This document shows, piece after piece, positions 16,084 to 64,000 of a stretch of DNA of 64,000 nt (position 1 is the stretch's first letter; each line of letters starts with the position of its first letter). Under the pieces are notes generated by a model. That model did not search any database. It saw nothing but the letters and a program-made list of their open reading frames with translations, and was not told where the DNA came from. Source of the DNA: Microbotryum violaceum (taxonomy: Eukaryota); assembly GCA_001244265.2 (NCBI GenBank), contig CDLV01000004.1, positions 620,001-684,000 on the forward strand, read 5' to 3'. A program made the translations under genes and the position numbers.

Positions 16084-18182
16084 AGGACCCCCGAAAGCCA
16101 GCCGGAGGCGCATTTTTTTTTTTGACATTTTGAGGACTCAAAATCCTGAAATTCGTCGAGGCGCATTGCAAAATATTGAGATTTTGGGACGAAACACACG
16201 TTTCGCCCCCGAGGCGCATGTCTAGATTTTGACATTTTCCCGTGAGTTGGCCCAATTTTGGCCTACCCTGAGCAGCCTACGGCATGACTTTGGGCCCGTT
16301 TGCCTTCGCTTCGAGACGCGTTTTGCGATGCTCGCGCTTGAACAAGTCACTTAGTACTAGCCATCTTCGGTAGTCACTTGAGTTAAGTGGCTGTGAGGGA
16401 TTAGGCCGATTAGATATTGAAAGGGCGCAGGTTCCGTTCCGCTTCACTTCGGTCCGAGATTGGAGCATAGCACGACAACATCATCCCATGCAGACCTTGA
16501 ACGATGCCTTCGATTGATCATTGCCACTCACCAACATGAACATGACGATCGCCGAGCTCCTCGCCTTCGATGTCGCTCCCGCCGACGCGTCTCTTCACAT
16601 CGAGTTGTCCAAAGACTAGCTCACCCACTACTCGACCTTATCATCTACTCGAGGCCGTTGAGAAGGCAAACAGCTTCTCACGACGACCAATCGTGCGTCC
16701 ACCAAGCTCAACTATCGAAATTTTGGTCTAAGCTAACGCGTGTTTGGTTCTACACAGCCCACACAATTGAAACTTCCGCCTCAAGTTGTCGATGCTCGCG
16801 ATACCAATTTATCGCTGAACTGGCCAACCTGATTGCCCATCAAGCTGCTCATAAGTGTAGCCACCTCAGAGCTGTTCTACTCAAAGGGAGGCCAATGGAA
16901 TTGAGCGACACAAGTCGCGGAGAGGCAGGCTTAGAGATTAGCAATACAGAGCAAGGACGCAGTGCAGTACATTCACGCGTCTTGAAAGGGTTGGTGCAGT
17001 CCATGGGACCATCTCGCTTCGAAGACATTGCGGGCACCGCAAGGAGCTTTCGCTGGACTGGAGGTGGCCAGGTGGCCCGAGCGCTCAGAACAAACGAGAT
17101 TCAGAAGAACGCCTATATTGAGGACGGCCACATTCAAGTGAGTTGTTGCTGAATTTAGGAACGAAGGCAGCTGGATCTAATGTTTTGCCGGTCCTATACT
17201 TTTAGGAAAAGCTCCTGAGAGAGACAAGCAGTATGGAGCGCTAGCACAACGCTAACCTCATTTTGGATCGCTTGACGGAGCTGTAACCGCTGCCACACCA
17301 TTGGAGATTGGATCTCTGATCTGCTTTGGCCTCAAGCGTGGCATGCATTCACTCAGCTGCGATCAAACTGCTTATGGAGAAGAAGCGCTGTCTATCGGAA
17401 TTGGTGCATTGTTTTGAGTGGCAGTTGAGCTGTGAAGTTCTTGTTTGACACAAGTCTTGTGTCCTACAGTGCGATACATCTACAGCAAAGTGACAACAAA
17501 CCACTGCAACCAAGACACGCTCGCCTCGTTGGTTCTACTGTCAAATGTCGTCGTACAGGAGCTTCGCCTCATCAAGAAAACATGCTATTCCACACACCTC
17601 ATTGATGGCACTATGCCGTTCCGCATGATTGATAGTCGACAGGTCATCGAGTCATTAGGCCCGTCAACGACTACATATCGTTCAACCACGGACCTTACCT
17701 CATGTTACCCGGACGAGCGCCTAATCAGCACGAGCGCACATGCCGAGCAAAGGTTTGCCGCCCTTCGGAGCGTGCCCGGCCTGCGAGATGCCGCCGGCAG
17801 AACCTCTACAAGTCGCACAAATGCCACCGCGGAAACAAGGAGCTCAACTTCAGCAAAAAGGAAGTCTGACAACGAAGCAGCGAGCCAGCCAGCACAGCAA
17901 GGAAGGCTTGTTTGAAGCCTGGAGCCACGCGCAACACCAGCCGAAGCGACGCGCGCCGCAAGCCACTTTCGATAGGCCGCGGCGCGCCCGCAAACGCTCG
18001 GAACGCGTTTTCGAGGACTTTTGAGCGATTTTTGGAGCATGTAGAACACGCTTTGATAATATTTCCGAGGCGCATGCGAAATTTTGACATTTTGGGGCCA
18101 AAATAGGGTAAAAAACTTTGACAAAAAGGCCAAAAAAGGGCGTTTTTCCGCATGCGCCTCTGGCTGGGCTTTCGGGGGTCCT
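16084..18182 (+). mobile_element. Non-autonomous 2.1-kb deletion derivative of the P-like/Ulp1 element
   Basis: TIRs AGGACCCCCGAAAGCC...GGCTTTCGGGGGTCCT. Flanks GCTTGACT (16076-16083) and GCTTTGACT (18183-18191). The two halves match the two ends of 37086-43968 in reverse complement. Confidence 0.92.
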
Positions 18183-19658: not shown

Positions 19659-20073
19659 ATCTGACGAACAGAGTTCTTCTCACCGAACCGTTTCTGAGCA
19701 ATTTCTGCTTGGGAAAACCTCTCGAACCTCCGTGAAAAGATCAAAGAAAAGCCTTACAATGCCCCGTTTATAGTCAATACAAAATAAATGAAATCTGAAT
19801 GGAATGTCACATGATTCGTCCCCAGATCTCGCATCAATTCGAGAATCGTTGCGGTGCAGGTACACGACACGTCTCGAACACAGACAAAGCGTTGCTTTGC
19901 TGCTGCCTTTCCTATACAAGTCAAGATTGATGCGAATGATCAAAGCCCGACGACTGTGCCGTTGGCCAATCTGAGCTATGACCGCATCGCTGGTTCGACG
20001 TTGATCGTTGCCCGACTCGTCTCGTCGATTGTTTCAACTGCGGTCCCTTCGTGCCGCCGTAGGAGCAACCGCA

Positions 20074-22117: not shown

Positions 22118-22451
22118 TGATCCTTAAGTCGGCACAGACCCATCCGTGTTCTCTTGTGCTACTTGGGGCCAGATTACCTTGTCTTGCTTCAAGGATCGCC
22201 CACTGTTTCGATTTTTCTCTCCATCTGTCCATTGTTGTAGTGTTATCGACGTGTCAATCTAGAAAGTGGCTCACAGTTGACGGAGTACAGTCAGATACAC
22301 TGGTCGTATTTCACCAACACCGAGAGAGCTCCAAATGCGTTACATGGGGAGGATGCGGAAAGGCGAATAACGGTGAGGGCCGCGGCTAACACCAGATAAG
22401 TAGGAGGCAAGAACACAACAGCGAAAACGGTGCGGAGCGACACAAGTGATG

Positions 22452-24918: not shown

Positions 24919-25402
24919 GGCGGTAAAGTACGCGAAATCACCGACTTGGCCGACGGCGGCAAGGTCGGATCAATCAGCCTTCGGAGAGGGTGGACCCCGC
25001 TCGAGTCCGAGGCGTGTATGCAGAACTGTCCGGGAGCGGTGCAGGCGGCAGGGAACCTCCCGAAACCAGGTTTGATCTTGTGGTCAAAGTCAATGCTGTG
25101 GGGCGACCCGAGCGCAAGTGGCAAGAGGACAAGTGCAGGATGGGGTCAGAGGGCAGCTTGGGCTCAGCGACCAGCCAGATGCTTTGCGCAGCGCTGAAAC
25201 AGGACCGCTGGAGACCGCTGGAAAGGGACTGAATAAGCGCGCACGGACCGCCTGCCGCGACCGAGAAGGACCCTCGGACCGAGATCGGATCAGCACATAC
25301 TGTCGCTCGAGTAAGATGGCTTTCGTGACCTTACAGAGCGTCGAGCTGTTTCTACCTCGTAGCCTTGAAATGCATTCATGTGTATGGAAATCGTCATGAT
25401 TC

Positions 25403-31400: not shown

Positions 31401-32221
31401 GGCTACGAATTGCAGCCAGAAGCCGATCAACGCTCGGTCGACTTTCTCGTCGGCCTCGAGGTAGGAGAGCGGCAGTCGGAGCAAGAAGTCGAGAAGGCCT
31501 CGCGCTGTCGAAAGAGGGTTGAACGGAGAAAGGAGGGAGATGAGGTCGGGCAAGGCGAGGGGCGCCAAGGAGGCTCGGGCGTCGAGCAAGAGCGAGAACG
31601 GCGCGGTCTTCCGCAGGGTCGGCTCGGCGATGAGGTTCAAAGCGGACGGGAAATGAGCGGTGGTGTGGTATGGCATGAACAAGGCGATCAAAGACGCGGT
31701 GTTGAGATCATTGACCCTATGAGAAGTGAATGCGCCACACATCGACGGCGGTCGTCAGCGGCGGTCGTCGTAGGTGAGAAGTCGGGTTAGACTTCGCGTC
31801 TACGACTTTCATGAGCGGACAGAGCCCAGCAGAACAGCAGAACTGACCTGAATCTGCGTAAGAGCCATTCAAGTACGACTCCAGCTGGTTTGAGCAGCAT
31901 GTGCTTCCCCAGGGCCCGGAGCACCTTGTCGAGCACTTGGCCGAGCCGATCGTTGTCCTCCTTGGTCAAGGCGCTTCGATCGATCGTCTTGGCTTCCTCC
32001 CCCAAGATGCGAGCATGGTAGCGTTCAAAGAAAGGGTCGAGGTTCGAGAGCTGGTCCCAGGCATTGGAAGCGAGTGCATGGAGATCCGCGGTCGAGATGG
32101 ACGCCGCATGGCGCGGCGAGAAGATGAACGAAGGTGGGTTCTTGAGCGACTTTGCGGACTGCAATCGTACGGAGTCGAGTGTGGTCCTCTGTGCGAGTTG
32201 CACGGCCAGAGAGCTCGACAT
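25403..32221 (-). CDS. UTP10: U3 snoRNA-associated protein 10 (HEATR1/BAP28), multi-exon
   Basis: N-terminus MSSSLAVQLAQ...VLEWLLRRF, LFMPYHTT, long HEAT-like ORFs, BP28CT-like LKLNEQTFRPLF, and C-terminus VPETTPFLSETLE...IEEHLGESL. Confidence 0.95.
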
Positions 32222-36923: not shown

Positions 36924-37352
36924 TAGAGGTAGTAAAATAAAATGAATCTGTGTGGCTAAAGAACGTCAAAGAACGTCAGAGAACGAAAGACAAACCACGT
37001 GGTTTGACGTCATCGGCAGCTCTCGGTCCAGCGCGTCCCAGTTAGCTAGCGCTGTTTCAGCATCGGCGAGACCGCTTCGCCTACCAGGATCCCCGAAAGC
37101 CCAGCCAGAGGCGCATGCGGAAAAACGCCCTTTTTTGGCCTTTTTGTCAAAGTTTTTTACCCTATTTTGGCCCCAAAATGTCAAAATTTCGCATGCGCCT
37201 CGGAAATATTATCAAAGCGTGTTCTACATGCTCCAAAAATCGCTCAAAAGTCCTCGAAAACGCGTTCCGAGCGTTTGCGGGCGCGCCGCGGCCTATCGAA
37301 AGTGGCTTGCGGCGCGCGTCGCTTCGGCTGGTGTTGCGCGTGGCTCCAGGCT

Positions 37353-40300
37353 TCAAACAAGCCTTCCTTGCTGTGCTGGCTGGCTCGCTGCTTCGTTGTC
37401 AGACTTCCTTTTTGCTGAAGTTGAGCTCCTTGTTTCCGCGGTGGCATTTGTGCGACTTGTAGAGGTTCTGCCGGCGGCATCTCGCAGGCCGGGCACGCTC
37501 CGAAGGGCGGCAAACCTTTGCTCGGCATGTGCGCTCGTGCTGATTAGGCGCTCGTCCGGGTAACATGAGGTAAGGTCCGTGGTTGAACGATATGTAGTCG
37601 TTGACGGGCCTAATGACTCGATGACCTGTCGACTATCAATCATGCGGAACGGCATAGTGCCATCAATGAGGTGTGTGGAATAGCATGTTTTCTTGATGAG
37701 GCGAAGCTCCTGTACGACGACATTTGACAGTAGAACCAACGAGGCGAGCGTGTCTTGGTTGCAGTGGTTTGTTGTCACTTTGCTGTAGATGTATCGCACT
37801 GTAGGACACAAGACTTGTGTCAAACAAGAACTTCACAGCTCAACTGCCACTCAAAACAATGCACCAATTCCGATAGACAGCGCTTCTTCTCCATAAGCAG
37901 TTTGATCGCAGCTGAGTGAATGCATGCCACGCTTGAGGCCAAAGCAGATCAGAGATCCAATCTCCAATGGTGTGGCAGCGGTTACAGCTCCGTCAAGCGA
38001 TCCAAAATGAGGTTAGCGTTGTGCTAGCGCTCCATACTGCTTGTCTCTCTCAGGGAGCTTTTCCTAAAAGTATAGGACCGGCAAAACATTAGATCCAGCT
38101 GCCTTCGTTCCTAAATTCAGCAACAACTCACTTGAATGTGGCCGTCCTCAATATAGGCGTTCTTCTGAATCTCGTTTGTTCTGAGCGCTCGGGCCACCTG
38201 GCCACCTCCAGTCCAGCGAAAGCTCCTTGCGGTGCCCGCAATGTCTTCGAAGCGAGATGGTCCCATGGACTGCACCAACCCTTTCAAGACGCGTGAATGT
38301 ACTGCACTGCGTCCTTGCTCTGTATTGCTAATCTCTAAGCCTGCCTCTCCGCGACTTGTGTCGCTCAATTCCATTGGCCTCCCTTTGAGTAGAACAGCTC
38401 TGAGGTGGCTACACTCATGAGCAGCTCGATGGGCAATCAAGCTGGCCCAGTTCAGCGAGAAACTGGTATCGCGAGCATCAACAAGAGGCGGAAGTTTCAA
38501 GTGTGTAGGCTGTATAGTACCGAAGATGCATGAGTTCAGATCGAAATTACGCTAGTTAAGCTTGGTAGACGCACGATTGGACGTAATGAGCTGTTTGCCT
38601 TCTCAATGGTCTCGAGTACGTAGCGTTCCTCAGCTTGTCTGTCAGCTTCGTCGTAAGCGATTTGCACGTCGAGTCTGGCCAATGAGAAAGGAGAACAATA
38701 TGAGGTCCGGATTAAAAGGTAGAAGAACGCTTCAGCGCACGTGGCACAGTGAAGTGTCCACTCATAAGGCTGCTTCAACGTCAAAGTCCAGAGCTGCAAG
38801 CGATCGAATTGCACGGTCGACAGCTTCCCGCTCGTTTGGGTCCAGTTTCACAACACCCTGGCACGTGCTACGCCGCATGCCATCAAGAGCAGAATCCAGC
38901 AATTCGGTGCGGAGCAGACCTTGATCTTCCTTGGTAGGATGATGGTCTTCAAGATCTACTTCAAGTGGGCATGGTATCCCGTGTCAGATACGCATCACTT
39001 GTAGACCAAGTCGTTCGGAACTACCTTGAACTGTTGTGCCATGGGCGAGTACGTCCTCGACGAGTATGTCAGGTTGCGGACCTTGGTTGCGTCTGTTGGA
39101 CGCGATGCGTTGCACAGGCTTCCACATGTGTAAACCTGAAAGCAGTTCACGCGCAGTATTTGCCGCTGCAAAACTGGTGAGAGAGATGTCGCCATCACTG
39201 GGGTACGTTCGCATCGCAACAAGGTCAAGATCGTCGAGGTCGTTGTAGGTATGATGGTAGCCTTGACGTGATCCCGCCGCCTCGGTCTTGAAACTTCCTC
39301 ATGAGCTCCAAGAGTGCAGTGACTTTGCCAGTTGCCTGTCGGATTCTAGCCGGGTTAACTACTGTATAGATTAGATTGATTTATGAAGAACGCACCTGCA
39401 AGAACTCTAGAGCATCGGACTCCTTTACAATCTGGCGTATACCCCCAAAGAAGTGCTCCACCAATTCTGTGCCATGCCGCCAGGGAATGAACGATTCCTT
39501 CGGCCAAAAATCTCGGTAGTTGCGGACGAGAGCAATCGTTGAGTCAACCATCTTCCTGACCCCATCAAGCGTTTCTTTGGCGAGGAACGAGTGAGAGCTA
39601 GATCCGGGGCGACTTCGGACAAAGTCATACCACGCCTCGAACGTATATCTGACAACGAGCAACATCCTGATACGTTCAAGGGGCTGAAGCGACCGGTTCT
39701 GGATGGCATCGTGTAACTCGCCACATAAGAACAGATATACGACCGCATCGGGGTCGAGTTTTTTGTCTTCAGCGAGTTCGGTTACGAGTTCGAGCGTCGC
39801 CTTGGAGAATGCCCGATGTGTTGCATTGTCGTCTTGACGATCACGCCCGACCACATCACGACGAGACAGAGTACGACGCGACTCCAGTCCGCCCAGGATG
39901 GTGAGCATATCCTGGTAGGCAATGCATCCGAGACCACCGAACAGCAATCTTGCTCCAGAGTCGATAGCGTTCCTCAGACATTTGGCCAGGTGTTTTTCGT
40001 CCCGACAGAAGACTATCGGCGTTCCCGCGACGTTGACGGTCGATATAGTGATCTCAGGAAACACTCCGTCCGGATCTGGGGAGGGGAGGGTGTATGATGA
40101 CGCGTTCCTTGATCCGGTTTGAGCAACAGCGCCACCCTGATCGCGCAGAAGGACGGCAACATTACGTTGCAGCACACCCTCGCTTGCCGCACCATCTGCG
40201 GAGATGGATACCAGAAGGTGTGCGACGCAACTTTTTATTAATTCTTGTATCACTGAATGTAACTGTTCGGTCGCGTCCTCCGCGTTCGTAGTTTTGCCGA

Positions 40301-43300
40301 TCACAAAAGCGGCAAACACCTGTGCTGGGGAGCCAACATCGTTCGGTGCTATCATGTAAGCTCGGATCTGAATGAAGAGGCGACACATGTTAAAGTCTCA
40401 TGGAAATGAAGTACAAACTTAAAAGAATCATTGCCACTCACTTTGGTTCCAGCAACCGGGGGTCAGGTCCGCTGAACATATCAGGGAGTTCACCCGGAGT
40501 TTCGTAGATGCGTGGCGGACCAATTGATCCGATCAGCTCGTGGCGGAATATGCCCTTCGTACGTAGTTCGCGCTCTAAACTGAGGTCTTCTGAGTAGTAT
40601 GGAGTGGTTCGCATCCTGGATCGACACTTCGTGTTGTCTACGTGCAAATTGAATGTTAGGCCGTCTGCTTCGAGTTTCGCGCAGATACGATCCATGTTGG
40701 ACTTGTCGAGGTCGAGGCGCATCCTGCCTGATGTCGCTCGGTCCATTCTGCAAGCACCTCGATCATTCAGTATGAGGTTGAATTGAAGGAACGAAAGAAT
40801 GACGGTACTCACTGCAGTTTTCGGCTTGTGGATGCGCCGATTGTAGCCTGCAGCACTCTCAGAGCCATCGGAGACGCCAGCGCCATGGCTTGCTCGAAGT
40901 CACGCAGCGCTTCGGACCGCACAAAGCCTCGCATTGATTTGCCCTTGACCATCCGATCGTGCTTGACCGTAGCCGCTTCCCTCCAAGATGTTCGCTCCGT
41001 CAAATTCTCCTGAGGCCACACCTTGCGCGAATCGTAGATACACGGTCCCTTGACCGTTGTCATCCAGGATCTCTTCTAGTCCATGATGTCGCCGGTAGAT
41101 GGCCGAGAGAAGTGTATCGCCCGCGACAGATTTTTTGTTGGTGTATTTGCGAGTTGCGCCAGCAGCATATTGACGTCGAAGGGCTGTTCGACAGGATGAA
41201 TCCTTAGGAAGCCTCGCGTATTCTTCACACGGTAAGCTTGGTCCGTCCTTGTTGATCGAATCTCGAGCGCTATACTTGCGACAATTCACACTGATGATGC
41301 GCGGTGCTCGATGATCGTTGCGCCACTTCCATTCATTCGCTTCCAATTTGACCACCTCCTTACTCTCGAGCTCCGTCATTGGTCGTTTACCAATTTTGGG
41401 ATAGAGGCGCAAACAAAGCGTCCGTCGAGGAGGGGCCCCGCCACCCTGCGCCGCAGTTGATGAAAGATAATGCATAGCCGTTTCAGACGTAAGGCCGGGG
41501 CACGGTCCTAGCGAGGGGCTGGTAGCAGTTGAGCCAGAGGCGATAGGTCTGAAGAAATTGCTGATGGGTTGGAGGTTGACACACTTCTTATTGCCGAGAT
41601 GTAATTGAAATCGTGCCTTGCACAGCAAGGCCGCCATTGGAACCAAGACATAACAACGTCCACACCACACGTACTTTGGATTGTTGACGTCGACATTCGA
41701 TCCCGGGCAAAGATCTTCGACTTTTTCAGCAAACCTCCTGAAAAGAGGCGGATGTGTTGTGGATTTGGACTTGGAGTACCAATGAATGAATGAAGATTTG
41801 CTGTAGCTACACGGCGTTGATAGATGACCTATTGTGAGATAGAGTATCGCCAAGGTCAATCAACTTGTAGCAGGCGAATGGGCGAGATAGATATCGAGTG
41901 TGTTTAAATGTATTACAACTAACCTATTGTGAGATAGAGTATCGCCAAGGACAATCAACTTGTAGCAGGCGAATGGGCGAGATAGATATCGAGTGTGTGT
42001 TAAAGAAGGAGAGAGTGAACGAGACCAGAGCCTTAGATAGTATCCGTGTGCAAGCCACCTCTGAGTCCAATCAATACGCCACACCGCCATCTGCCTCCAT
42101 CCGGCGCCGCGCCACGCGCGCGCCATCTTCCCAATGCCACAAGTCCCTCTGGACCGCTGACCCTTTACTAATTTCCCACAACAGGATGGTCGCGAGCCCA
42201 CGTCGTATGCTCCTCGGGGTGAGCTCTCGAGCTTTCGTCGGCTTCGATGCCTTGGTGAAGGTCGTTTGCGGATTTCCTCCCAGACTTTGCCTTTGATTTT
42301 GCGCCCGTGGCAACGATGGATTCGATCTCTTTGGGATCCTCGACAGCACCAACCAGAGACGATAAACGACAGAATTGACGGAGCCGTGACATGTGAGCGC
42401 GCGCTGCGTTGAATGACCCAATCCCGAACACCTCCGTCTCCACTGCATTGATCGTAGCCGGCCCGCACGAGTAGCTGTCTTCCTGTTGTTCCGCCTTAGG
42501 AGTATGAGGGAACTCGTTTTTGATGTCCAGCTTCAGAAATTTGAATAGCGTAAGGACGGCCGTCCGAGTAGCCGCGGTGATCGGAGTGGCGGAGAGCCTA
42601 GTGAGTTGATCACAGACCATGTCCGCTTGTGCATGTTGATGCGGGCCAGGACCCAATGGCTGTCGGAGCAGAGGGGTAGAAACCAGATTGACTTTGACGT
42701 CGGCGTGTTGCGCATGCAATCGCCTAGCTCGATGAGATTCCGATACTGGTTTGGCGGGCCGAAAGAGCAGGCTTTGAAGACCGAATGAGGATCCGAGTCG
42801 GGAGGGCGAGCCATTACCAAGGAGATGACGGCGGAGGGTATAAGTCCATACGATGTTTCGAAATCGGGATTCTGCACTCGTCCAGCTCGAAGGACGCTTT
42901 CAATTGATAAGTTCACCGCGGCTTCACCGAGCCAATCATGACCTGGGTAGAGACGCGAATAAGCAAGTTGCCTCAGATACGAGATGAATACGAGTGGCCA
43001 GCTGAAGGATTGGTGTACTGACTTAAGAATCTCAGGAGATAAACCAGACTCGTTCCACTTGCAAGAAGAGGCAATGGTAGAAGCCCGTCTTGCTCTTGCC
43101 ATTGCAATCCGTTCAGTATGCGACGTGCGACAGCGATACAGTTGCGGTCAATTTCGTTGATAACGATAATTTTGTCCATCCATCGTTGAGCTCGCAGCGC
43201 CCAGCTTTGAACGTCTTTTGCTCGGTCGTACTCTGACCATAGCCGATCGGCGCCGAGCGGCAAACACGTCGACCCGACGGCCAAAGATCGATATCCTTTC

Positions 43301-43548
43301 TTGCGTGCATTGATCAGAGGATCGGTAGCGAGAAGCGCGTCTCTGGTCTGAAGAGTCGGGTAGGGTAAGGTCGAATACTGGGTGGGCTCGTCTTTGGACA
43401 ACTCGATGTGAAGAGACGCGTCGACGGGAGCGACATCGAAGGCGAGGAGCTCGGCAACCGTCATGTTGGTGAGCGGCGATAATCGATCAAAGTCATCGTC
43501 GTGCAAATAGTAGTCCTGATCTTCGTCAAGAAACAAGCATGGAATCAT
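37353..43548 (-). pseudogene. Ulp1/SENP-like (C48) protease fused to a P-element/THAP9-like DDE transposase; disrupted
   Basis: Protease: DWLGEAAVN, DSHWVL, INSL, QQEDSYSCG. Then CGRC...H...C, ASPMALRVL...STSRKL, LHVDNTK, SISADGAASE, DEKHLAKCLRN, DRQDDNATHRAFS and HGTELVEHFFGGIRQ. Disrupted by a solo LTR, frameshifts and stops. Confidence 0.8.
41755..42183 (-). mobile_element. Solo LTR of a copia family, with 5-bp TSD
   Basis: TGTTG...CAACA ends; GGATG at 41750-41754 and 42184-42188. Reverse-complement similarity to LTR 60661-60938. Internal ~77-bp duplication (41827-41903 and 41922-41998). Confidence 0.92.
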
Positions 43549-46500
43549 TTCGTCGTGCTATGCTCCAGTGTTAGAACGAAGTGAAGCGGAACGGAACCTC
43601 AGGGGCCCCGTCATTTTTATCTTACTCGATAGGGGTATCTAATCCCTAATATTCTCTAACAGCCACTGAACTAAAGTGATTAGCGAAAATGGCTAGTGAC
43701 TTGTTCAAGCGCGAGCATCGCGAAGCGCGTTTCGAAGCGAAGGCAAACGGGCCCAAAGCGATGCCGTAGGCTGCTCAGGGTAGGCCAAAATTGGGCCGAC
43801 TCACGGGAAAATCTCAAAATCTGGGCATGCGCCTCGGGGGCGAAACGTGTGTTTCGTCCCAAAATGTCAATTTTTTGCGATGCGCCTCGACGATTTTCAG
43901 GATTTTGGGTCCTCAAAATGTCAAAAAAAAAAAAAAAAATGCGCCTCCGGCTGGGCTTTCGGGGTCCTCGCCTACCTTCGTCGAGGTTCCATTTCCCATC
44001 AAAGCAGCCTGGCACATGACTCTCTGCTTCCCAGACGACCGGTTTCGCGTGCCTGCCACATCGGAGCGTAGTCCCTTCAACCATCCAGTTCTGCCACTGC
44101 CGCGCAGTCATCTGCAAGCTTTCACGTCCCGTCTCCTGTACAACAATCTTCACGGAGAGCAGCGGGGCAGCAGAGACGTCGGCAGCTGCTCGCGTTCCTC
44201 CGCACAATCCTTTTCTTCCCCTCCCGCTCTAATCGCAGACGTCGCCGCCAGCAACCTCGAACAATCGCCGAAGCTCAGCGACAACGATGCCTTCGCCAGA
44301 AGCAGCAGCGCGAAACCGATCAAGACGACGTCGCGCAAACTGGTTCGTCAAGTCAACTGCACCGGCAGCAGGCAGTCTCAATGTCGCACGGCAAGTACAA
44401 CGGGCCCGCAGTTCTTCACCTCCAAGCTTGAGATTCGTTCGTACTTGAACCAGTTCCGGACCTCGGGTAGCGTCGGCCAGTGCGCCAATTCCGCCGTTAG
44501 GGGCCCCGCCAGCGTGTCACGGGCTTGCGAACACTGGGCTTCACTCCACGACATTCCGCGGTCTTCCGCGACATTCTATGAGCCCGGTTTAAACTGAGGC
44601 GCAGGCTTTTCCATCTTTCTTCCTCCTGCTCTTCACCCCTGACCCATGGCACCTCATCCCAACGCCAACTTGAGCTCGCGACATCTGAAGCGGTCGTCGT
44701 GGAAGCTCTGCAACGAATACGGGATCAAGAAATGGCTGCCGCATGCAACATAGCTACGAATTCGAGTAAGTAGCTTCATGAACTGAGCTCTTAGTATGGG
44801 ATTGTTCAGAAGCTAATGGGTTACTACCAAGCAGAAATTCCCTTCAACACGTCCTTTTCGAGTGTCAACCCTCGAGTTGTTTCTTCACCGTCCGCTGGTG
44901 ACATTGCATACGTGAGTCATCCCTTGACATGGCTGTGCAGTCTTAGATATGACGGAAAACTGATACGAGAAACAGACATTGCACGTCAGTGATTGACTTC
45001 GTACGGTTGAGGATCTGCCGGGTCATTGGGACACTAAATGTGAGTCTTCACTGCTATTGCTACAAATGAACAACAGCAAGAATACTGATAGTTCTAAAGG
45101 AGGAATCACGCAAAAAAAAATGGTTCCGTGAATTGCGGCTCACCATCCGTGGCAGATTCTCAACGGCTCCGTTCGTTGGAGTGACCGTCGTGTTGGCAGG
45201 TGTGTGCCAATCTTTCAAAAGCAAAACGCAGGGCAGCATGACTTATGACCGGTTGGACTGTAACATCACAGGAAATCCGAAGCAATGCCGTCCCGTTATT
45301 CCACGGCTCGGTTTGGTGGAGTGACCGTCGTGTTGGCAGGTGCGTGCCGATCTTTCAAAAGCAAAACGCAGGGCAGATGACCAACTAACCGGTTCGACTG
45401 TAACATCACAGGGGATCCGAAGCGATGTCTTCCCGTTATTCCGAAGTCGCTTGCTTCATGGAATGCTGACTTCTGGGGGAAAGTTGAGGTGCGGCTTGAC
45501 TTCGTACGGTGCAGAATCCGGGTCATGGGAACACTAAATGCGAGTCTTCACTGCCATTGCTACAGATGGACAACCGCAAGAATACTGATAGCTGCACGAC
45601 ATCTCGGAGGTCTGAAGACCAGCAACAACATTGTCAATGGGAAAGGCCTGAGCGAGAGCGTTCCGGTCCGGTCCGGTCCGGTCCCACACAGTTCTTCGCC
45701 GAACCCTGCCTCTACCACATCAACATCGACGAATCATTCTACTTCCAGAGGATCTAGGGCAAATCAATTGCGGAGACTCAGGGAAAGGCAGCAAATGATT
45801 CTATCAATCAATCGCCTCCACCCCAGCCAACGCCCGACGTCCACTCTGTCCCGGTGGATGTCGTCATCCAATGGTTCCACCGCCTGTGAACGCTGCGATC
45901 TCTCGAAGGCCTCAAGGTCAGCAAAGACGTCGTCAACGGGAAAGGCTCGAGCGAGAGCGTTCCGGTCCAGTCCCACCGTTCTTCCGAACCCTGCGTCTAC
46001 CGCATCAACATTGACGAACCAGTCTACTTTCAGAAGATCTAAGGCACGCCGACGTCCAGCCGCCACAGTCACCGATGGCACTGGCACCGCGTCCACTGCC
46101 GGAGGATCAACTTCATCCAATGCATCCACCGCCTATGAACGCTGCGATCTCTTGGAGGTCTCAAGGTCAGCAAAGACGTCTTCAACGGGAACGGCTTGAG
46201 CGATAGCGTTCCGTGCAACAGAAGTGCTGATTTTCAGTGTGAGGTGACGCGCGGAGCGCGCCGCCGAACCTAGTAAAAAATAAATAAACCTTCATTGAAG
46301 CTTCGTACACTCCTCGTCTTTACATCCCACTCGCCCACTCGTACACATACAATCCTCACATAAAGCACTCCTTTCCTTCCTTGTTGAGCGGATAGTTCGT
46401 CCATTTCGAGCACAACAACGCCTGGATGGGGTACCTTCTAGACGACGCCAAGCACGCTCATGTCAACAACTTAAGCGATGAACCAACTGCAAGTCAAATA

Positions 46501-50814: not shown

Positions 50815-53805
50815 TTGCCGTCATGTCACTGCTTTCTGATCTTGTACACCTCCGCACCATCGAGGTCAGCCCACTGCAGTGCACAACTCTCGAATATCGA
50901 CAACGTGATAAGCCTCGCGTCCACCACTAGCGACAGCCGTTCCTCTCGCCGCACCGATCAAGCACAGTATATCTACTCCGGTCCGCTCGTACGCAACCGT
51001 CCAGTGTCAGTGCTCGACGATGTGGCTGTCAAATGCAGTCTTGGGCAGCTCGTGTGCAGCAGCATCAACTTCAGCCTGGATCTCCTGAAGGAGCTTTTTC
51101 GCCGGGCTCACCACGTGGAAGGTAACTCCAGGAGGAATCCGCTTGCGAAAGAGCTATTCCTACAAGTACTCGTCTGCTCGTGCGATCCAAATTGTAATGC
51201 TTGCTCAAATGGGTATGTCTTCAGAAGACAACAAGTCGCGAGTCCTGTGACTCCACCACGACGTCATTGCTTCCCCGAGTACAGAGCATACGTATCAAAA
51301 CCTTTCAACGTGCTTCAAGCCGAACTGAACGAGGAAATCCAGAAGAATCGGGAGAAGGTCTCACCGTATAACTCCAAACGAAAGATGCACAGACGTCCAC
51401 CGCTGCTGCCCGAACCCGAACCCGAACACGAACGACCCCCTGGAGTGACATCGCATTATGCGCCAGCATCCGATCAGTTGAAGACTGAGATTCGTTCTGA
51501 ATGGAATGATTACTTCACCGAGGCTCGATTCCGTCTCTTCTGCTGCCTCGTCTGTTCCGAGAGAGTCTTCGGGCATAACGTACGATGGGTGCCTGAAGAC
51601 GACATGAAGCGTGAAGAATCAGGAATTTGGAAGGTATTATTAACCAACTCTACGCTACGGACGGACCTTCGACCTCCGACTTAAGATTTTTCAGCTTGGC
51701 GGGGCGCACTCATCGATCCCCGAGGTCTTCATCGACCGAGCGATTTAAACGATCAGATCGTGTACTCGTCCACGAACAACGCGCTTCAGTGCTCACTCTG
51801 TCCAGACTGTTTCAAAAGTTTGTTCCCTACCACAGGGCCACCGACTAAACCCCCTCGGTCGTTGAGCAACGGATTCTATCACGCACTGGACCACGTCCCC
51901 GCTGATGTCCGAGAATGCTTCTCCAACGCCAGTCAGCTTGAGCACCTCGTCACCGCGCGCGCCAGAGCGTACAAGATCGTGTACAAGCTGACTCGTTTCG
52001 GAGATCCCAAAGCCCAACAAAAATTCACGCGCGGGAACACCGTCATCTTCAGCCAGAACACCGCTCCGTTCACCGATGTACTGCCCATGTCAGTCGAGGA
52101 ACTCGTCGACAGTGTTTGCGTTTTATTCTGCGGAGGAAGCCCCAACCTTGCGGAGTTGGACAAGTGTCGACCCATGATCGTGAAGCAAAATCGGATTCAA
52201 AAGATGCTCAGATGGTTGATCAACGAAAGCAAGAATCCGGCGTACTCTGCCGTCTCCTTTGATGGCGAAAGACTTGCACAGCCCGTTCGACGCAGTTCCG
52301 GTGCGCTCGACCAGACCTCTCCAGCTTCTACGGCGGTTTCAGCTTCCACTTCGACTTCGGCTTCCGTCTGGGTTGCTCCCCAAGTACCGGATCGACAGAT
52401 CGCGGATGAAGACGTTCTCGTGCCCGACCTAGTTTTGGCGAATGTGGTGACCGCAGAGACAGTGGAACCAACATCATCGCTCTTTGAAGGCTACGCAACA
52501 ACGCATAACGACTCTGATGAACCAGTATTCGACACGTCCATGTGCCGCCACCCCCTACCGACGAACCAATTTACTCATGGCAGTTCTTTGAGAAAGCTCT
52601 CCGTTATTTTAACCATGACAAGCCTACCTATGTCATTCCGACAGGCGACGCCCCTTTGTGGGAATCTTCGGATGAGCTCCTGCTCTCGAAGCTGTGGCCA
52701 CACCTCGATCCATTTGGTCTCGTTGGTTTCTGTGTCGAGCGCGACGTCAAAATTTCTCTGGACGAGCAAGTCAAGCATTGGCTCAATCTATACGATAGCA
52801 TTTTTCGATGCGACCCGTCTTGCCCATTCATCGTCTCAAACATGCTCCGCCGACGAGAAGTGTTTCGCCAACTCGCTTTTCGGGTTCCCAAAGAGAGGGT
52901 GGCTCGAATCGGAGCAGCACTGCTCGAAATCGACATGGATGTTGTGTCCGAAATGATCGAAAAATCAAGGACACGAAAAGGTACAAGGCAACAACAGAAG
53001 CAGAAAAGTATATCAACCGTATTATGGCGGAATTGCAAAGTGTCGGAGACAAATTTCACGGCACAACTGCGCAGATGCTCGACATGAGGAATGAGATCCG
53101 CGGATACGTCAACGCGTTCGGTATGTACACCCTCTTCGTCACCGTCAAACCCGGCAGATGTACGCTCACCGTTGCGATGACGAGGTATCTCACAGCCTTG
53201 GGCGCATCAAGGACAAGTTTCTCCACCAAGCAGATACCGTTTAGGCCAACGACAAAAAGTCATCTAATCATGGGTTGCAACGCTCTTCCCACTGTGAAAG
53301 ATCTGTGGGGGAATACTGACACTCCATACCATTTGATTCCCATGTCTCTCAGCGGTGGACACATTCACCACGCCTAGCCAGGCCGTCTCGCGCCCAAGTC
53401 GCTCCCGGAAGTCCCGATCTCTCAACGTCAACTGAAACCACTTCTTACAGCTGAATTCGGTGAACGCGCGATGTGGGTCCCCGGCGCTGACGACCACATG
53501 CGAACACAAACTCGTCCAGACGCGCACTGTGACATGGGCGATGTCGAGTGATCTTAACTTATGCATTTACACCCCCGCTCTGGCTCGATCTCGTTGCCTG
53601 CAATGTTCATCAGCGTTTGGCACATTTACACGCCTCATTCATGTGAACCGAACTGACTCGGGAACTCTGAGTCGGTGCCGTGCTGCATACCCGATCCATG
53701 GCACGTTCTTAGTAATACTAGCTGACGCTCTCAGTCGGTGTTATGTACTCCGTCAGAGGTTCAGGGACCCGTCGCCCCCTCCGGGGGCGCGTTAATCTTA
53801 TCTAA
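50815..53805 (+). mobile_element. Helitron family C (DUF6570-like plus Helitron_like_N), truncated Rep; 5' end not located
   Basis: CLVCSE, CPDC...PPRSLSNG, QKFTRGNTVIF, WPHLDPFGLVGF and MRNEIRGYVNAFGMYTLFVT. In-frame TAA at 51682 and frameshifts. Hairpin CGCCCCC-TCC-GGGGGCG (53773-53789), then CTAA|T at 53802-53805. Confidence 0.8.
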
Positions 53806-60087: not shown

Positions 60088-60328
60088 AGGACCCCCGAAA
60101 GCCCAGCCGGAGGCGCTTTTTTTTTTTTTTTTTTTTTTTTGACATTTTGAGGACCCAAAATCCTGAAAATCATCGAGGCGCATTGCAAAAAATTGACATT
60201 TTGGGACGAAACACGTTTCGCCCCGAGGCGTATGTCTAGATTTTGACATTGTCCCGTGAGTTGGCCCAATTTTGGCCTACCCTGAGCAGCCTACGGCATG
60301 ACTTTGGGCCCGTTTGCCTTCGCTTCGA
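60088..60328 (+). mobile_element. Third P-like element end (TIR plus subterminal region), truncated
   Basis: Near-identical to 16084-16315. An extra 15-bp TIR start, AGGACCCCCGAAAGC, lies at 60048-60062. Confidence 0.9.
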
Positions 60329-60339
60329 TCGCGACGGCT

Positions 60340-60620
60340 TGTATACATGTAAGGATATATCCTTACACATGAGTTAAGGTCAATACACAACCAAATCTGT
60401 TCATCTTGATATTGTAACATCAACATATAACTATTTCTGAATGGTGTCTGCAAGGACTACATGATAGCATGTGTATTGCAAGACTTGTAGTGATTCAAAA
60501 TTTCTGTGTCCTTACCGCACCTCCCGTATCCTTACCGCACCCTCGTATCCTTACATGTGTCGACATGTGTAAGGATACGCCCGCGCGCGCACGTCACATG
60601 CGTAAGGATACGCTCGCGCG
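60340..60620. repeat. Palindrome-rich segment built on TAAGGATA/TATCCTTA; possibly the start of another LTR
   Basis: Perfect 20-bp palindrome TGTAAGGATATATCCTTACA (60348-60367), plus several direct and inverted GTATCCTTAC copies at about 60508-60612. Confidence 0.6.
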
Positions 60621-60660
60621 CAAAGAGCACTGGCTGCTGCTGGTGAATAATTGACTCTTT

Positions 60661-64000
<3,340 letters not shown>

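What the first reader, a model, noticed from the sequence alone, without database searches (positions are those of the whole stretch)
37086..43968. P-element-like fungal transposon whose transposase carries an N-terminal Ulp1/SUMO-protease domain
Seen: ~30-bp TIRs, an exact 8-bp TSD, and one minus-strand gene filling the element. The gene has HW...NS...QQxDxxSCG, then a Cys/His finger, then DNTK / ADGA / DxxHxxKxxRN / DRQD / ExxEHFFG. Known: that motif order and 7-8-bp TSDs typify P/THAP9 transposases; Ulp1-like proteases are described cargo of Mutator, CACTA and Zisupton elements. Unusual here: no evident THAP domain, termini AGG...CCT instead of CA...TG, and the protease in the same gene. 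Inference: the transposase may remove SUMO or ubiquitin from itself or from silencing factors at its target. I cannot check whether this fusion is already catalogued.
Basis: partly seen in the sequence, partly recalled or inferred. Interest (0 to 1): 0.85.

Follow-up and report, generated by a model that had tools for sequence, protein, structure and literature searches.

The report
P-like fungal transposon with Ulp1 protease
This is a broken copy of a Microbotryum cut-and-paste transposon whose single gene joins a SUMO-protease-like domain to a P-element-type transposase, an architecture shared by many uncharacterised proteins of basidiomycete fungi.

Summary
Window 37086-43968 is a 6.9-kb DNA transposon with ~30-bp terminal inverted repeats, an exact 8-bp target duplication (CGCCTACC) and one minus-strand gene. 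Two more pieces of the family lie in the window. The copy is dead: a 429-bp solo LTR, at least four frameshifts and one stop codon.

A family profile hits yeast Ulp1 (E 9e-19). Models of two Microbotryum relatives match the Drosophila P element transposase (Foldseek E 3e-12, TM 0.70; next best RAG1, 6e-4). One 1173-aa relative matches both Ulp1 and P transposase in a single chain. With the LTR removed, one 521-aa reading frame joins the protease cysteine to the zinc finger, so the two are fused.

The fusion is widespread: 34 of the 42 long relatives have the protease motif upstream of the transposase motif, and all 20 relatives looked up are Basidiomycota. Protease Gln and Cys are invariant (34 of 34). 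No THAP domain was found. Spliced contigs from two coded organisms confirm six introns.

What the protease does remains inference. Ulp1-transposase fusions are known in Ginger1 and Mutator. I found none described for P elements, and Repbase could not be checked.

The parts
37078..37085 (.). Left copy of the 8-bp target-site duplication, CGCCTACC
   Evidence: Read directly
37086..37116 (+). Left terminal inverted repeat (AGGATCCCCGAAAGCCCAGCCAGAGGCGCAT)
   Evidence: pair I1 (26 nt, 96%); 4 matches against 0 expected.
37108..37201 (.). Left subterminal region with two inverted copies of GAGGCGCATGC (37108-37118 on +, 37191-37201 on -). Candidate transposase-binding repeats.
   Evidence: 11 matches against 1.75 expected; the exact copies lie only at element ends. 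pair I2.
37244..43548 (-). The single multi-exon gene (about 1,650 aa in paralogues): N-terminal domain, C48/Ulp1, linker, zinc fingers, HTH, P-type RNase H core, C-terminal region. The start is taken at the Met of ...DEMIPCLF.... Paralogue gene models add an uncertain upstream exon at 43661-43762.
   Evidence: tblastn; motif coordinates
42336..43020 (-). Ulp1/C48 protease domain, split by a frameshift. His is at 42656-42658, Asn (in place of the triad Asp) at 42605-42607, Gln at 42483-42485 and Cys at 42465-42467.
   Evidence: Pfam on the window piece: E 6.4e-4, 20.0 bits against a cut-off of 20.7. Paralogues score 23-25 bits. Alignment columns. Ulp1 profile hit.
42590..42600 (-). Lesion: about 5 extra bases between ...VINSL and SATPIT... 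shift the frame inside the protease domain
   Evidence: HSPs 177-317 (frame -1) and 309-470 (frame -3) overlap here. Sequence read.
41755..42183 (.). Lesion: solo LTR insertion (429 bp, TGTTG...CAACA) flanked by the 5-bp TSD GGATG (41750-41754, 42184-42188). It contains a 95-bp tandem duplication and is 80-84% identical to the LTR-like stretch at 60661-60909.
   Evidence: (family D1). Contigs of X1 (1) and X4 (2) join 41749 to 42184 without it.
41581..41664 (-). C-x2-C...H-x5-C zinc finger (CGRC...HLGNKKC)
   Evidence: conserved columns in A2
41218..41505 (-). Conserved PCPGLT...GGG block and second Cys cluster (WxNDH...C...PCxxC). In this copy the last Cys has become Tyr (41218-41220).
40975..40982 (-). 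Lesion: small deletion and frameshift between ...ANILEG and (K)AATVKH...
   Evidence: HSPs end at 40978 (frame -2) and start at 40979 (frame -3); paralogue residues LV are missing
40748..40812 (-). Intron (65 nt, GT..AG on the minus strand)
   Evidence: Spliced contig of X4; ends checked
40458..40462 (-). Lesion: a run of 5 C where paralogues need 6 (…PDP|PVAGTK), giving a frameshift just before the next intron
39435..40644 (-). P-type RNase H catalytic core. First Asp in HVDNTK (40636-40638); second Asp in SISADGA (40194-40196); D-x2-H-x2-K-x2-RN at 39969-40007; DRQDD at 39822-39848; Glu in ELVEHFFG (39456-39458 or 39465-39467).
   Evidence: Invariant columns. Foldseek to 6p5a_A.
39335..39394 (-). 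Intron (60 nt, GT..AG)
   Evidence: Spliced contigs of X3 and X4
39291..39291 (-). Lesion: one extra base in a T run (…MRKF|KTEAAG…), frameshift
   Evidence: One X4 contig lacks this base (depth 52.4 of 210).
38674..38764 (-). Intron (91 nt)
   Evidence: Spliced contigs of X3 and X4
38510..38574 (-). Intron (65 nt)
   Evidence: Spliced contigs of X3 and X4
38063..38130 (-). Intron (68 nt)
   Evidence: Spliced contigs of X3 and X4
38013..38015 (-). Lesion: in-frame TAA where paralogues have Cys or Tyr (…AQR*PHF…)
37799..37864 (-). Intron (66 nt)
   Evidence: Spliced contigs of X3 (2) and X4 (1)
43808..43938 (.). Right subterminal region with repeated ...AAAATGTCAA...GCATGCGCCTC units (exact GAGGCGCATGC on the minus strand at 43825-43835) and a poly-A run
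   Evidence: families D2-D4
43939..43968 (-). Right terminal inverted repeat
   Evidence: pair I1
43969..43976 (.). Right copy of the 8-bp target-site duplication, CGCCTACC
   Evidence: Read directly
16084..18182 (-). Second family member: a 2.1-kb internally deleted (non-autonomous) copy. It keeps element positions 1-1533 (97.5% identity) and 6281-6883 (80.7%) and has both TIRs. Flanks are GCTTGACT / GCTTTGAC(T), an imperfect 8-bp TSD.
60088..60328 (+). Third family member: a 241-bp terminal fragment (91% identical to element positions 6647-6883) beginning with a TIR, next to a Copia element

Best explanation
Window 37086-43968 is an inactivated, once autonomous copy of a multicopy cut-and-paste DNA transposon of Microbotryum, the anther-smut fungi.

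Shown here:
- It has about 30-bp TIRs, an 8-bp target-site duplication and repeated GAGGCGCATGC motifs beside both ends.
- It carries one roughly ten-exon gene on the minus strand.
- In intact relatives that gene encodes a single protein of about 1,650 aa with this domain order: an N-terminal domain of unknown function (~200 aa); a Ulp1/SENP-type (C48, clan CE) cysteine protease domain; a disordered linker; a C2HC zinc finger and a second Cys cluster; a P-element-type HTH; an RNase H-fold DDE core whose closest solved structure is the Drosophila P element transposase; and a long C-terminal region.
- This copy cannot make the protein. It has a Copia-type solo LTR, at least four frameshifts, one stop codon and a lost zinc-ligand Cys.
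- The family is transcribed and spliced in related organisms.
- The protease-transposase fusion is conserved across Basidiomycota, with the protease Gln and Cys invariant.

Inferred:
- The transposase recognises the subterminal repeats through its zinc-finger and HTH modules, which stand where P elements have a THAP domain.
- It excises the element and reinserts it with an 8-bp staggered cut, as P elements do.
- The fused protease is an active isopeptidase for SUMO or another ubiquitin-like protein. It acts where the transposase is bound, most likely stripping SUMO from host chromatin-silencing or repair factors, or from the transposase itself, so as to favour transposition. I put this functional step at about 0.4. 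The structural classification I put at about 0.85-0.9.
For: Mobility:
- TIR pair of 26 nt at 96%.
- The TIR pattern occurs 4 times against 0 expected in 100 shuffles.
- Exact 8-bp TSD.
- A 2.1-kb deletion derivative and a terminal fragment lie elsewhere in the window.
- GAGGCGCATGC occurs 11 times against 1.75 expected, with the exact copies only at element ends.

One gene:
- Paralogue proteins tile 43762-37247 on the minus strand.
- Excising the LTR plus one TSD copy gives a 521-aa open frame joining the protease Cys motif to the zinc-finger region.

Protease:
- Pfam PF02902 is above its cut-off in 4 of 4 scanned close paralogues and in 18 of 28 long relatives.
- Profile of 34 relatives against PDB sequences: Ulp1 at E 9.2e-19, SENP1/2 at 1e-10 to 1e-12.
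- Gln 34 of 34, Cys 34 of 34, His 32 of 34.
- Foldseek of the P0008 model: Ulp1 2hl8 at E 6.7e-8, TM 0.62.

Transposase:
- Model of P0002 (62% identical to the window core; core pLDDT mostly above 85) hits 6p5a_A at E 3.3e-12, TM 0.70 by target, over 531 columns. RAG1 scores 6e-4 and Hermes 3e-3.
- The P0008 model hits both Ulp1 and 6pe2/6p5a (E about 5e-7) in one chain.
- In the Atlas, 10 of the 10 best named hits share a family or clan. The named rows carry TNP-like/P/THAP9 Pfam domains, some on only a minority of their members.
- Pfam Tnp_P_element HTH passes its cut-off in P0050 (25.9 bits against 23). Weak TNP-like_RNaseH_N or HTH hits occur in 3 of 30 each.

Spread:
- 562 representatives at E <= 1e-3.
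- Of the 150 best, 42 are >= 1400 aa. 38 of the 42 have the protease motif, and in 34 of the 42 it lies upstream of D.KH..K..RN.
- 20 of 20 looked-up representatives are Basidiomycota.

Expression:
- Contigs of coded runs X3 and X4 skip six predicted introns exactly, all GT..AG on the minus strand.
Against: Link to P elements:
- No sequence-profile link to the P element transposase in the PDB. Profile A1 gave only a chance hit at E = 1, and profile A2 gave no P hit at E <= 1.
- Pfam P-family models reach their cut-off in only 1 of the 71 relatives scanned.
- The P assignment therefore rests on predicted structures (mean pLDDT 67-68) of relatives, not of the window's own broken protein.
- No THAP domain was found, and the termini are AGG...CCT, unlike the P-element termini as I recall them.

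Protease:
- The triad Asp is Asn in the Microbotryum lineage, so activity is not assured.
- The window's own protease fragment scores 20.0 bits, just under Pfam's 20.7.

Transcript evidence:
- The spliced contigs are short (about 200-500 nt) and were laid at 90% likeness.
- Some have short sides (21-23 nt).
- They come from runs whose RNA nature is a guess.
- No single contig spans both domains.

About function: nothing here measures protease or transposase activity.
Confidence: 0.85

Rival explanations
1. The protease domain works in cis. It cuts the polyprotein, for instance at the conserved Gly-Gly-Gly block between the zinc finger and the HTH, and so releases the transposase. This would resemble the way clan-CE viral proteases cut after Gly-Gly.
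For: A GGG block preceded by small residues is conserved in most of the 34 relatives. It lies between the N-terminal modules and the transposase. That Ulp1 and the viral CE proteases cut after Gly-Gly is recalled knowledge, not tested here.
Against: In the model the block sits in a moderately confident, structured segment (pLDDT 67-83 for residues 550-600 of P0008), not in the disordered linker. No ubiquitin-like fold precedes it as far as the secondary structure shows. No cleavage data exist.
Confidence: 0.08
2. In the Microbotryum lineage the Ulp1-like domain is catalytically weak or dead, because the triad Asp is Asn. It serves as a SUMO-binding or targeting module that steers insertion or recruits host factors.
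For: Asn replaces Asp in all Microbotryum members of alignment A2 and in Phenoliferia, whereas most Agaricomycete members keep Gly-Asp-Ser.
Against: His, Gln and Cys are kept in this lineage in sequences as little as about 25-32% identical to one another, which argues for retained catalysis. Papain-type proteases use Asn in the same role (recalled).
Confidence: 0.12
3. The DDE core belongs to a superfamily other than P (hAT, Kolobok, Transib/RAG-like, KDZ/Zisupton). Its likeness to P reflects only the shared RNase H fold with an insertion domain.
For: No sequence-level link to the solved P transposase. There is no THAP domain. Kolobok and KDZ have no solved structure, so Foldseek could not rank them. 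hAT and, by recall, Zisupton also make 8-bp duplications.
Against: Foldseek separates P (3e-12, TM 0.70) from RAG1 (6e-4, TM 0.36) and Hermes (3e-3, TM 0.26) by eight or more orders of magnitude. The only Pfam transposase models hit at all are P-family ones. No hAT-dimerisation or KDZ model hit any of the 71 relatives. The Atlas neighbours are TNP-like/THAP9. The D-x2-H-x2-K-x2-RN motif is invariant and is, as I recall, a P hallmark. Kolobok makes TTAA duplications (recalled).
Confidence: 0.07
4. Protease and transposase are separate genes or proteins in intact elements, and the long proteins in the databases are gene-prediction fusions.
For: All the long relatives are automatic gene models. 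The M. silenes-dioicae models are visibly wrong in places, reading a false frame after ...LSRRDV. Of the 150 best representatives, 99 are under 1000 aa, and only 1 of those 99 has the protease motif.
Against: In the window itself the protease Cys motif and the zinc finger share one uninterrupted 521-aa frame once the LTR is removed. The exons downstream are joined by introns confirmed in spliced contigs. The same domain order recurs in 34 of 42 long representatives from many genera.
Confidence: 0.03

Closest known systems
Drosophila P element transposase and vertebrate THAP9 (P superfamily)
   Same: It is the best structural match of the core (6p5a_A: E 3.3e-12, TM 0.70, 531 columns). An HTH of the Tnp_P_element type lies before the RNase H domain (P0050). 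The D-x2-H-x2-K-x2-RN and E-x-F-F-G-type motifs are present. The TSD is 8 bp and the TIRs about 30 bp; the figures for Drosophila P, 31 bp and 8 bp, are recalled.
   Different: No THAP domain; a C2HC finger and a second Cys cluster stand in its place. There is an added N-terminal domain plus a Ulp1 protease of about 400 aa in total, and a long conserved C-terminal extension. Termini are AGG...CCT. Sequence is too diverged for the Pfam P models or for a PDB profile search. Whether the insertion domain binds GTP is unknown.
Ginger1 transposases with a fused Ulp1 or OTU domain (Bao, Kapitonov and Jurka 2010, PMC2836005; passages read)
   Same: A DDE transposase and a C48/Ulp1 domain in a single polypeptide of a cut-and-paste transposon. 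The function of the protease is likewise unknown.
   Different: Ginger1 has a Gypsy-integrase-type DDE with the protease at the C-terminus, and was described from animals such as Hydra. Here the DDE is P-type, the protease is N-terminal and the hosts are basidiomycetes.
Ulp1-carrying Mutator elements (KI-MULEs and others) and Ulp1-encoding Cryptons (PMC2836005 and PMC3212892; passages read)
   Same: Transposons that carry a C48 peptidase domain.
   Different: The transposition enzymes differ: Mutator DDE or tyrosine recombinase. For CryptonS, PMC3212892 says the peptidase is an additional protein; I did not read the arrangement in the Mutator elements. The hosts are plants, animals and oomycetes.
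Zisupton / KDZ transposons of fungi
   Same: Abundant in Basidiomycota. The 8-bp TSD of Zisupton is recalled. A KDZ remnant lies in the same window (CxC1 at 10615-11424).
   Different: No KDZ or CxC Pfam model hits this family in the 71 relatives scanned. The structural and Pfam affinities are with P.

Membership tests
P superfamily (P element / THAP9) | RNase H-fold DDE core with an insertion domain, closest in structure to the P element transposase | tested here: met
   Foldseek of the P0002 model: 6p5a_A at E 3.3e-12, TM 0.70; the next family scores 6e-4. The P0008 model again hits 6pe2/6p5a at about 5e-7. Both are models of relatives, not of the window's broken protein.
P superfamily (P element / THAP9) | Significant match to the Pfam P-family models (PF12017, PF21787, PF21788, PF21789, PF12596) | tested here: inconclusive
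   Only P0050 passes a cut-off (PF12017, 25.9 bits against 23). P0014 reaches E 2.8e-4. In A1, 3 of 30 hit PF12017 and 3 of 30 hit PF21787, all weakly. There were no hits to the GBD or C-terminal models.
P superfamily (P element / THAP9) | 8-bp (7-8 bp) target-site duplication and short TIRs | tested here: met
   Exact 8-bp CGCCTACC and about 30-bp TIRs. The second copy has an imperfect 8-bp TSD.
P superfamily (P element / THAP9) | N-terminal THAP zinc-finger DNA-binding domain | tested here: not met
   No PF05485 hit in the 13 + 28 + 30 relatives scanned at E <= 0.01, 0.001 and 1. Other Cys/His clusters are present instead.
P superfamily (P element / THAP9) | GTP-binding insertion domain and GTP dependence | not testable with these tools
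   The Foldseek alignment covers 531 columns of a 442-residue chain, so the insertion domain is probably aligned. The residue-level alignment was not available, and the Pfam GBD model was not hit.
Peptidase family C48 (Ulp1/SENP), clan CE | Sequence match to the C48 catalytic domain | tested here: met
   PF02902 is above its cut-off in P0003, P0004, P0006 and P0007 (23.1-25.5 bits against 20.7) and in 18 of 28 long relatives. Profile A2 against Ulp1 1euv_A: E 9.2e-19. The window fragment alone scores 20.0 bits, E 6.4e-4.
Peptidase family C48 (Ulp1/SENP), clan CE | Catalytic His-Asp-Cys triad plus oxyanion Gln | tested here: inconclusive
   Gln 34 of 34, Cys 34 of 34, His 32 of 34. Asp is present in most, but the Microbotryum lineage, this window included (VINSL), and Phenoliferia have Asn.
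Peptidase family C48 (Ulp1/SENP), clan CE | CE-clan fold | tested here: met
   Foldseek of the P0008 model: Ulp1 2hl8 at E 6.7e-8, TM 0.62; SENP1, 2, 5, 7 and NEDP1 at 1e-5 to 1e-4.
Peptidase family C48 (Ulp1/SENP), clan CE | Isopeptidase activity on SUMO (as against ubiquitin or NEDD8) | not testable with these tools
   Needs an enzyme assay.
hAT superfamily | hAT dimerisation domain and a Hermes-like fold | tested here: not met
   No PF05699 hit. Hermes scores only E 3e-3, TM 0.26.
KDZ / Zisupton | KDZ transposase and CxC cysteine-cluster Pfam models | tested here: not met
   No KDZ or CxC hit in the 71 relatives scanned. The same library did detect CxC1 elsewhere in the window.

The most novel reading that the evidence does not exclude
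This is the founding example of a large, overlooked Basidiomycota-wide lineage of P-superfamily transposons. In it the THAP domain has been replaced and a catalytically constrained Ulp1-type deSUMOylase has been welded to the transposase N-terminus. The protease acts as an anti-silencing or repair-modulating device, delivered to the element's own chromatin by the transposase. If so, P-like elements are common in fungi rather than rare, and the family offers a tractable system for asking why so many unrelated transposons (Mutator, Ginger1, Crypton, CACTA, P) have independently captured Ulp1.
Probability: 0.3. Interest if true: 0.7.

Novelty: new variant of a known kind. Interest (0 to 1): 0.48.

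Why it matters
A 2017 survey of fungal cut-and-paste transposons used the Pfam P models. It reported P elements as "single occurrences" (11 copies), with RepBase entries only from Pucciniales and Allomyces (PMC5751038, passages read). The family found here escapes those models, yet it has 562 representative clusters at 50% identity. All 20 representatives looked up are Basidiomycota, and all are annotated as hypothetical proteins.

Recognising these as P-type transposases would improve repeat annotation and gene counts in mushroom, rust-relative and smut genomes.

The invariant protease residues show that the Ulp1 domain is selected for in a transposon, fused to the enzyme that does the cutting. 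That gives a concrete, assayable case for the long-open question of what Ulp1/OTU domains do for transposons.

For the window itself, the element is simply a dead transposon copy.

Tried and rejected

Searches for a sequence link to P elements:
- Profile A1 (30 core relatives) against PDB sequences gave only a chance hit, FAP43 at E = 1.
- Profile A2 found only Ulp1/SENP-type proteases and no P transposase.
- The search for homologous proteins with A1 returned only 12 proteins, all family members or unnamed, and no named P/THAP9 bridge.
- An hhalign comparison with a P/THAP9 alignment was not possible, because no tool gave me canonical P sequences.

Pfam on the window:
- Pfam on the window's own 11 ORF pieces gave one sub-threshold C48 hit, one chance hit (Beta-prop_SCAP, E 0.062) and nothing for the core.

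Sequencing runs:
- No RNA holder is listed.
- Four further introns that I predicted from the protein alignment (about 42977-43023, 40371-40437, 38984-39058 and 37406-37517) were not among the joints listed. Three joints were not shown.
- No contig spans both domains.
- A joint from 43355 to 43459 (X4 only, side 28) does not fit any predicted intron and was left unexplained.

Ideas not tested:
- The self-cleavage idea for the GGG block was considered but not tested.
- Complex prediction was not used, because no SUMO sequence from a tool was at hand and no binding claim is made.

Literature:
- Eight searches found no paper describing a P-type transposase fused to Ulp1/C48.
- Repbase and Repbase Reports are not in the library, and supplements were closed. 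An existing catalogue entry cannot be excluded.

Full report

Yes.

- The repeat finder reports an inverted pair at 37091-37116 / 43939-43964: 26 nt, 96% complementary, 6.8 kb apart (I1).
- Read directly, the match continues to the outermost bases, AGGATCCCC... and AGGACCCC..., with one 1-nt indel. The TIRs are therefore about 30 nt.
- A 25-nt TIR pattern occurs four times in the window (18153, 37091, 43940, 60093). It occurred in none of 100 dinucleotide-preserving shuffles.
- The eight bases outside each end are identical: CGCCTACC at 37078-37085 and at 43969-43976.
- BLAST of the element against the window finds two more members. One is a 2.1-kb internally deleted copy at 16084-18182, with element positions 1-1533 at 97.5% identity and 6281-6883 at 80.7%. 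The other is a 241-bp terminal fragment at 60088-60328.
- The deleted copy has both TIRs. Its flanks, GCTTGACT / GCTTTGAC(T), form an imperfect 8-bp duplication.
- The motif GAGGCGCATGC, the inner part of the TIR, occurs 11 times with up to one mismatch against 1.75 expected. Its exact copies lie only in the ends of the two complete copies. I take these as candidate transposase-binding repeats; that is inference.

**2. The gene and its state in this copy**

Paralogous proteins annotated in Microbotryum silenes-dioicae are 95-96% identical over the part of the core ORF they match (about half of it). By tblastn they tile the minus strand from about 43762 to 37247.

The frame changes are of two kinds.

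Introns:
- Six are confirmed, because contigs of two coded runs (X3, X4) skip them exactly: 37799-37864, 38063-38130, 38510-38574, 38674-38764, 39335-39394 and 40748-40812. The last was seen in X4 only.
- All six are GT..AG on the minus strand.
- These runs are only guessed to be RNA. The contigs were laid at 90% likeness, and some joints have short sides (21-23 nt).
- Even so, exact removal of six canonical introns is hard to explain other than by spliced transcripts of family members.

Lesions specific to this copy:
- About 5 extra bases inside the protease domain (about 42594-42598).
- A solo LTR at 41755-42183: 429 bp, TGTTG...CAACA, 5-bp TSD GGATG.
- A small frameshifting deletion near 40978.
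- A C-run one base short at 40458-40462.
- One extra base at 39291, which one X4 contig lacks.
- A TAA codon at 38013-38015.
- A conserved Cys changed to Tyr at 41218-41220.

Contigs from X1 (one, 4,957 nt and unspliced, so DNA-like) and from X4 (two) join 41749 to 42184. That is, they carry the element without the LTR. Two of the frameshifts sit in homopolymer runs and could in principle be assembly errors. The LTR, the 5-base insertion and the stop codon cannot be.

**3. Are protease and transposase one protein?**

- Removing the LTR and one copy of its duplication yields a single 521-aa open frame. It runs from the protease Gln/Cys motif through the linker into the zinc-finger and HTH region.
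- From there the confirmed intron at 40748-40812 leads into the exon with the first catalytic Asp. A second intron, predicted but not among the joints listed, leads into the 338-aa ORF with the second Asp and the Glu.
- Independent relatives show the same order in one chain. Of the 150 best representatives of the core, 42 are at least 1400 aa. 38 of these 42 have a His...Asp/Asn...Gln-x-Asp-x-x-Ser-Cys motif, and in 34 of the 42 it lies upstream of D.KH..K..RN.
- Pfam finds Peptidase_C48 at residues of about 200-400 in 18 of the 28 long representatives scanned.
- The shorter representatives (99 of 150 under 1000 aa) nearly all lack the protease motif. I read them as partial gene models or decayed copies. 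A protease-less sub-lineage cannot be excluded; the 849-aa Rhizophagus protein is a candidate.

**4. What are the domains?**

Protease:
- A profile of 34 long relatives hits the yeast Ulp1 catalytic domain at E 9.2e-19 and SENP1/2 at 1e-10 to 1e-12. The His, Asp, Gln and Cys blocks are aligned.
- In the alignment, Gln and Cys are invariant (34 of 34) and His is present in 32 of 34.
- The third triad residue is Asp in most members. It is Asn in the Microbotryum sequences, this window included, and in Phenoliferia.

Transposase core:
- It hits no Pfam model at E <= 0.1 in the window's own pieces.
- Its relatives reach P-family models only weakly. PF12017 passes its cut-off in 1 of 28. In A1, 3 of 30 hit PF12017 and 3 of 30 hit PF21787, all below the cut-off.
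- Profile searches of PDB sequences find no transposase.

Structure settles the core:
- An AlphaFold2 model of P0002 (M. lychnidis-dioicae, 62% identical to the window core; mean pLDDT 67.9, core blocks mostly 85-95) has as its best PDB match the Drosophila P element transposase 6p5a_A. The figures are E 3.3e-12, probability 1.00, TM 0.70 by target, 531 columns.
- The next families are RAG1 (6e-4, TM 0.36), ISCth4 (1.3e-3) and Hermes (3e-3, TM 0.26).
- A model of the 1173-aa P0008 (mean pLDDT 67.2) matches both Ulp1 (2hl8: E 6.7e-8, TM 0.62) and the P transposase (6pe2/6p5a: E about 5e-7, TM 0.50-0.55).
- The ESM Atlas gives leads in the same direction. 10 of the 10 best named hits share a family or clan, and the named rows carry TNP-like/P/THAP9 domains, some on only a minority of members. 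Structural TM to THAP9 and P clusters is 0.46-0.61.

DNA-binding modules:
- No THAP domain was detected in any of the 71 relatives scanned.
- In its place there is a C-x2-C...H-x5-C finger, a conserved PCPGLT...GGG block and a WxNDH...C...PCxxC cluster.

**5. Where else does the family occur?**

- The exhaustive representative search gives 562 clusters at E <= 1e-3 and 355 at E <= 1e-10.
- All 20 representatives whose records I looked up are Basidiomycota. Most are Agaricomycetes: Mycena, Coprinopsis, Schizophyllum, Steccherinum, Ceratobasidium, Trametes, Marasmius and others. There is also one Microbotryomycete (Phenoliferia) and one Tremellomycete (Naganishia).
- All are named 'hypothetical' or carry only an automatic domain label.
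- adds Lentinula, Blastosporella, Infundibulicybe and a Rhizophagus protein.

**6. How it most likely works**

Shown: this is a TIR/TSD-bounded, multicopy, transcribed element. Its single product combines a Ulp1-type protease with a P-type DDE transposase, and the protease nucleophile and oxyanion residues are under selection across the family.

Inferred from what is known of P elements:
- The zinc-finger and HTH modules bind the subterminal repeats.
- The DDE core excises the element and inserts it with 8-bp staggered cuts.
- Whether GTP is needed is unknown.

Inferred for the protease, at about 0.4: it is an isopeptidase for SUMO or another ubiquitin-like protein, brought to the element or target chromatin by the transposase. 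There it removes the modifier from silencing or repair factors, or from the transposase itself.

Alternatives are given under Rival explanations:
- Self-processing at the conserved GGG block (0.08).
- A binding-only role in the Asn-bearing Microbotryum lineage (0.12).
- A non-P core (0.07).
- Two separate proteins (0.03).

**7. Comparison with what is known, and novelty**

- Fusion of Ulp1 or OTU to a DDE transposase is documented for Ginger1. The same paper reports an Ulp1 domain encoded in Mutator transposons (PMC2836005, passages read). C48 peptidases are also encoded by some Cryptons (PMC3212892, passages read). A protease-transposase fusion as such is therefore not new.
- P elements in fungi were reported as rare: RepBase entries only from Pucciniales and Allomyces, and 11 copies found in a Pfam-based survey (PMC5751038, passages read).
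- Eight full-text searches found no description of a P-type transposase fused to Ulp1, nor of this basidiomycete family.
- The library excludes Repbase Reports and most subscription journals, and supplements were closed.
- I therefore rate this a new variant of a known kind. It belongs to the P superfamily by fold and by TSD/TIR anatomy, fails the THAP criterion, and carries an N-terminal Ulp1 domain.
- The particular copy in the window is an ordinary dead transposon.

Noticed in passing
window 16084-18182: A 2.1-kb internally deleted, non-autonomous copy of the same element. It has both TIRs and an imperfect 8-bp TSD. Its 3' gene part is 97.5% identical to the full copy, but the other end only 80.7%. 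It may be a chimera of two subfamilies.
   Followed up: partly
window 60088-63999: A 241-bp terminal fragment of the element is followed by an LTR-like stretch (60661-60909, 80-84% identical to the solo LTR inside the element). Next comes a Copia gag-pol ORF (61078-63999: RVT_2, rve, gag) that runs off the window. The element was probably truncated by the Copia insertion.
   Followed up: partly
window 41827-42003: The solo LTR contains a 95-bp tandem duplication (82-nt repeat, 96% identical). One X2 contig has the LTR with only one unit (joint 41903 to 42003).
   Followed up: no
window 39428-39867, versus proteins P0003, P0004, P0006 and P0007: The annotated M. silenes-dioicae gene models leave the true frame after ...LSRRDV and read a false frame (TKNSTPMRSY...). 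They therefore lack the DRQDD and E-x-x-EHFFG motifs. The window copy and P0001/P0002 keep the right frame there. The database proteins of this family are unreliable in the catalytic core.
   Followed up: partly
alignment A2; window 42605-42607: The third residue of the protease triad is Asn instead of Asp throughout the Microbotryum sequences and in Phenoliferia, whereas most Agaricomycete members keep Gly-Asp-Ser.
   Followed up: partly
window 41431-41505; alignment A2: A PCPGLT...YLxRT...GGG block is conserved across the family, between the zinc finger and the second Cys cluster. Its role is unknown. A Gly-Gly cleavage site is one speculative reading.
   Followed up: no
window 10615-11424 (-): An ORF with a CxC1 cysteine cluster of KDZ (Kyakuja-Dileera-Zisupton) transposases (E 1.6e-7). 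This is a remnant of a different DNA transposon superfamily.
   Followed up: no
window 51685-52956 (+): An ORF with DUF6570 (E 1.9e-22). As I recall, this domain accompanies Helitron-like helicases, so it may be another mobile element.
   Followed up: no
window 20005-31754: Ordinary host genes lie between the transposon copies: Mid1 calcium-channel component (20005-22003, +), a dual-specificity phosphatase (22452-23864, -) and a UTP10/BP28CT nucleolar protein (25603-31754, -).
   Followed up: no
window 43355-43459: One X4 contig skips 103 nt here (ends TC..AC, side 28). No intron is predicted at this place. It may be a variant copy, an alternative intron or a mislaid contig.
   Followed up: no
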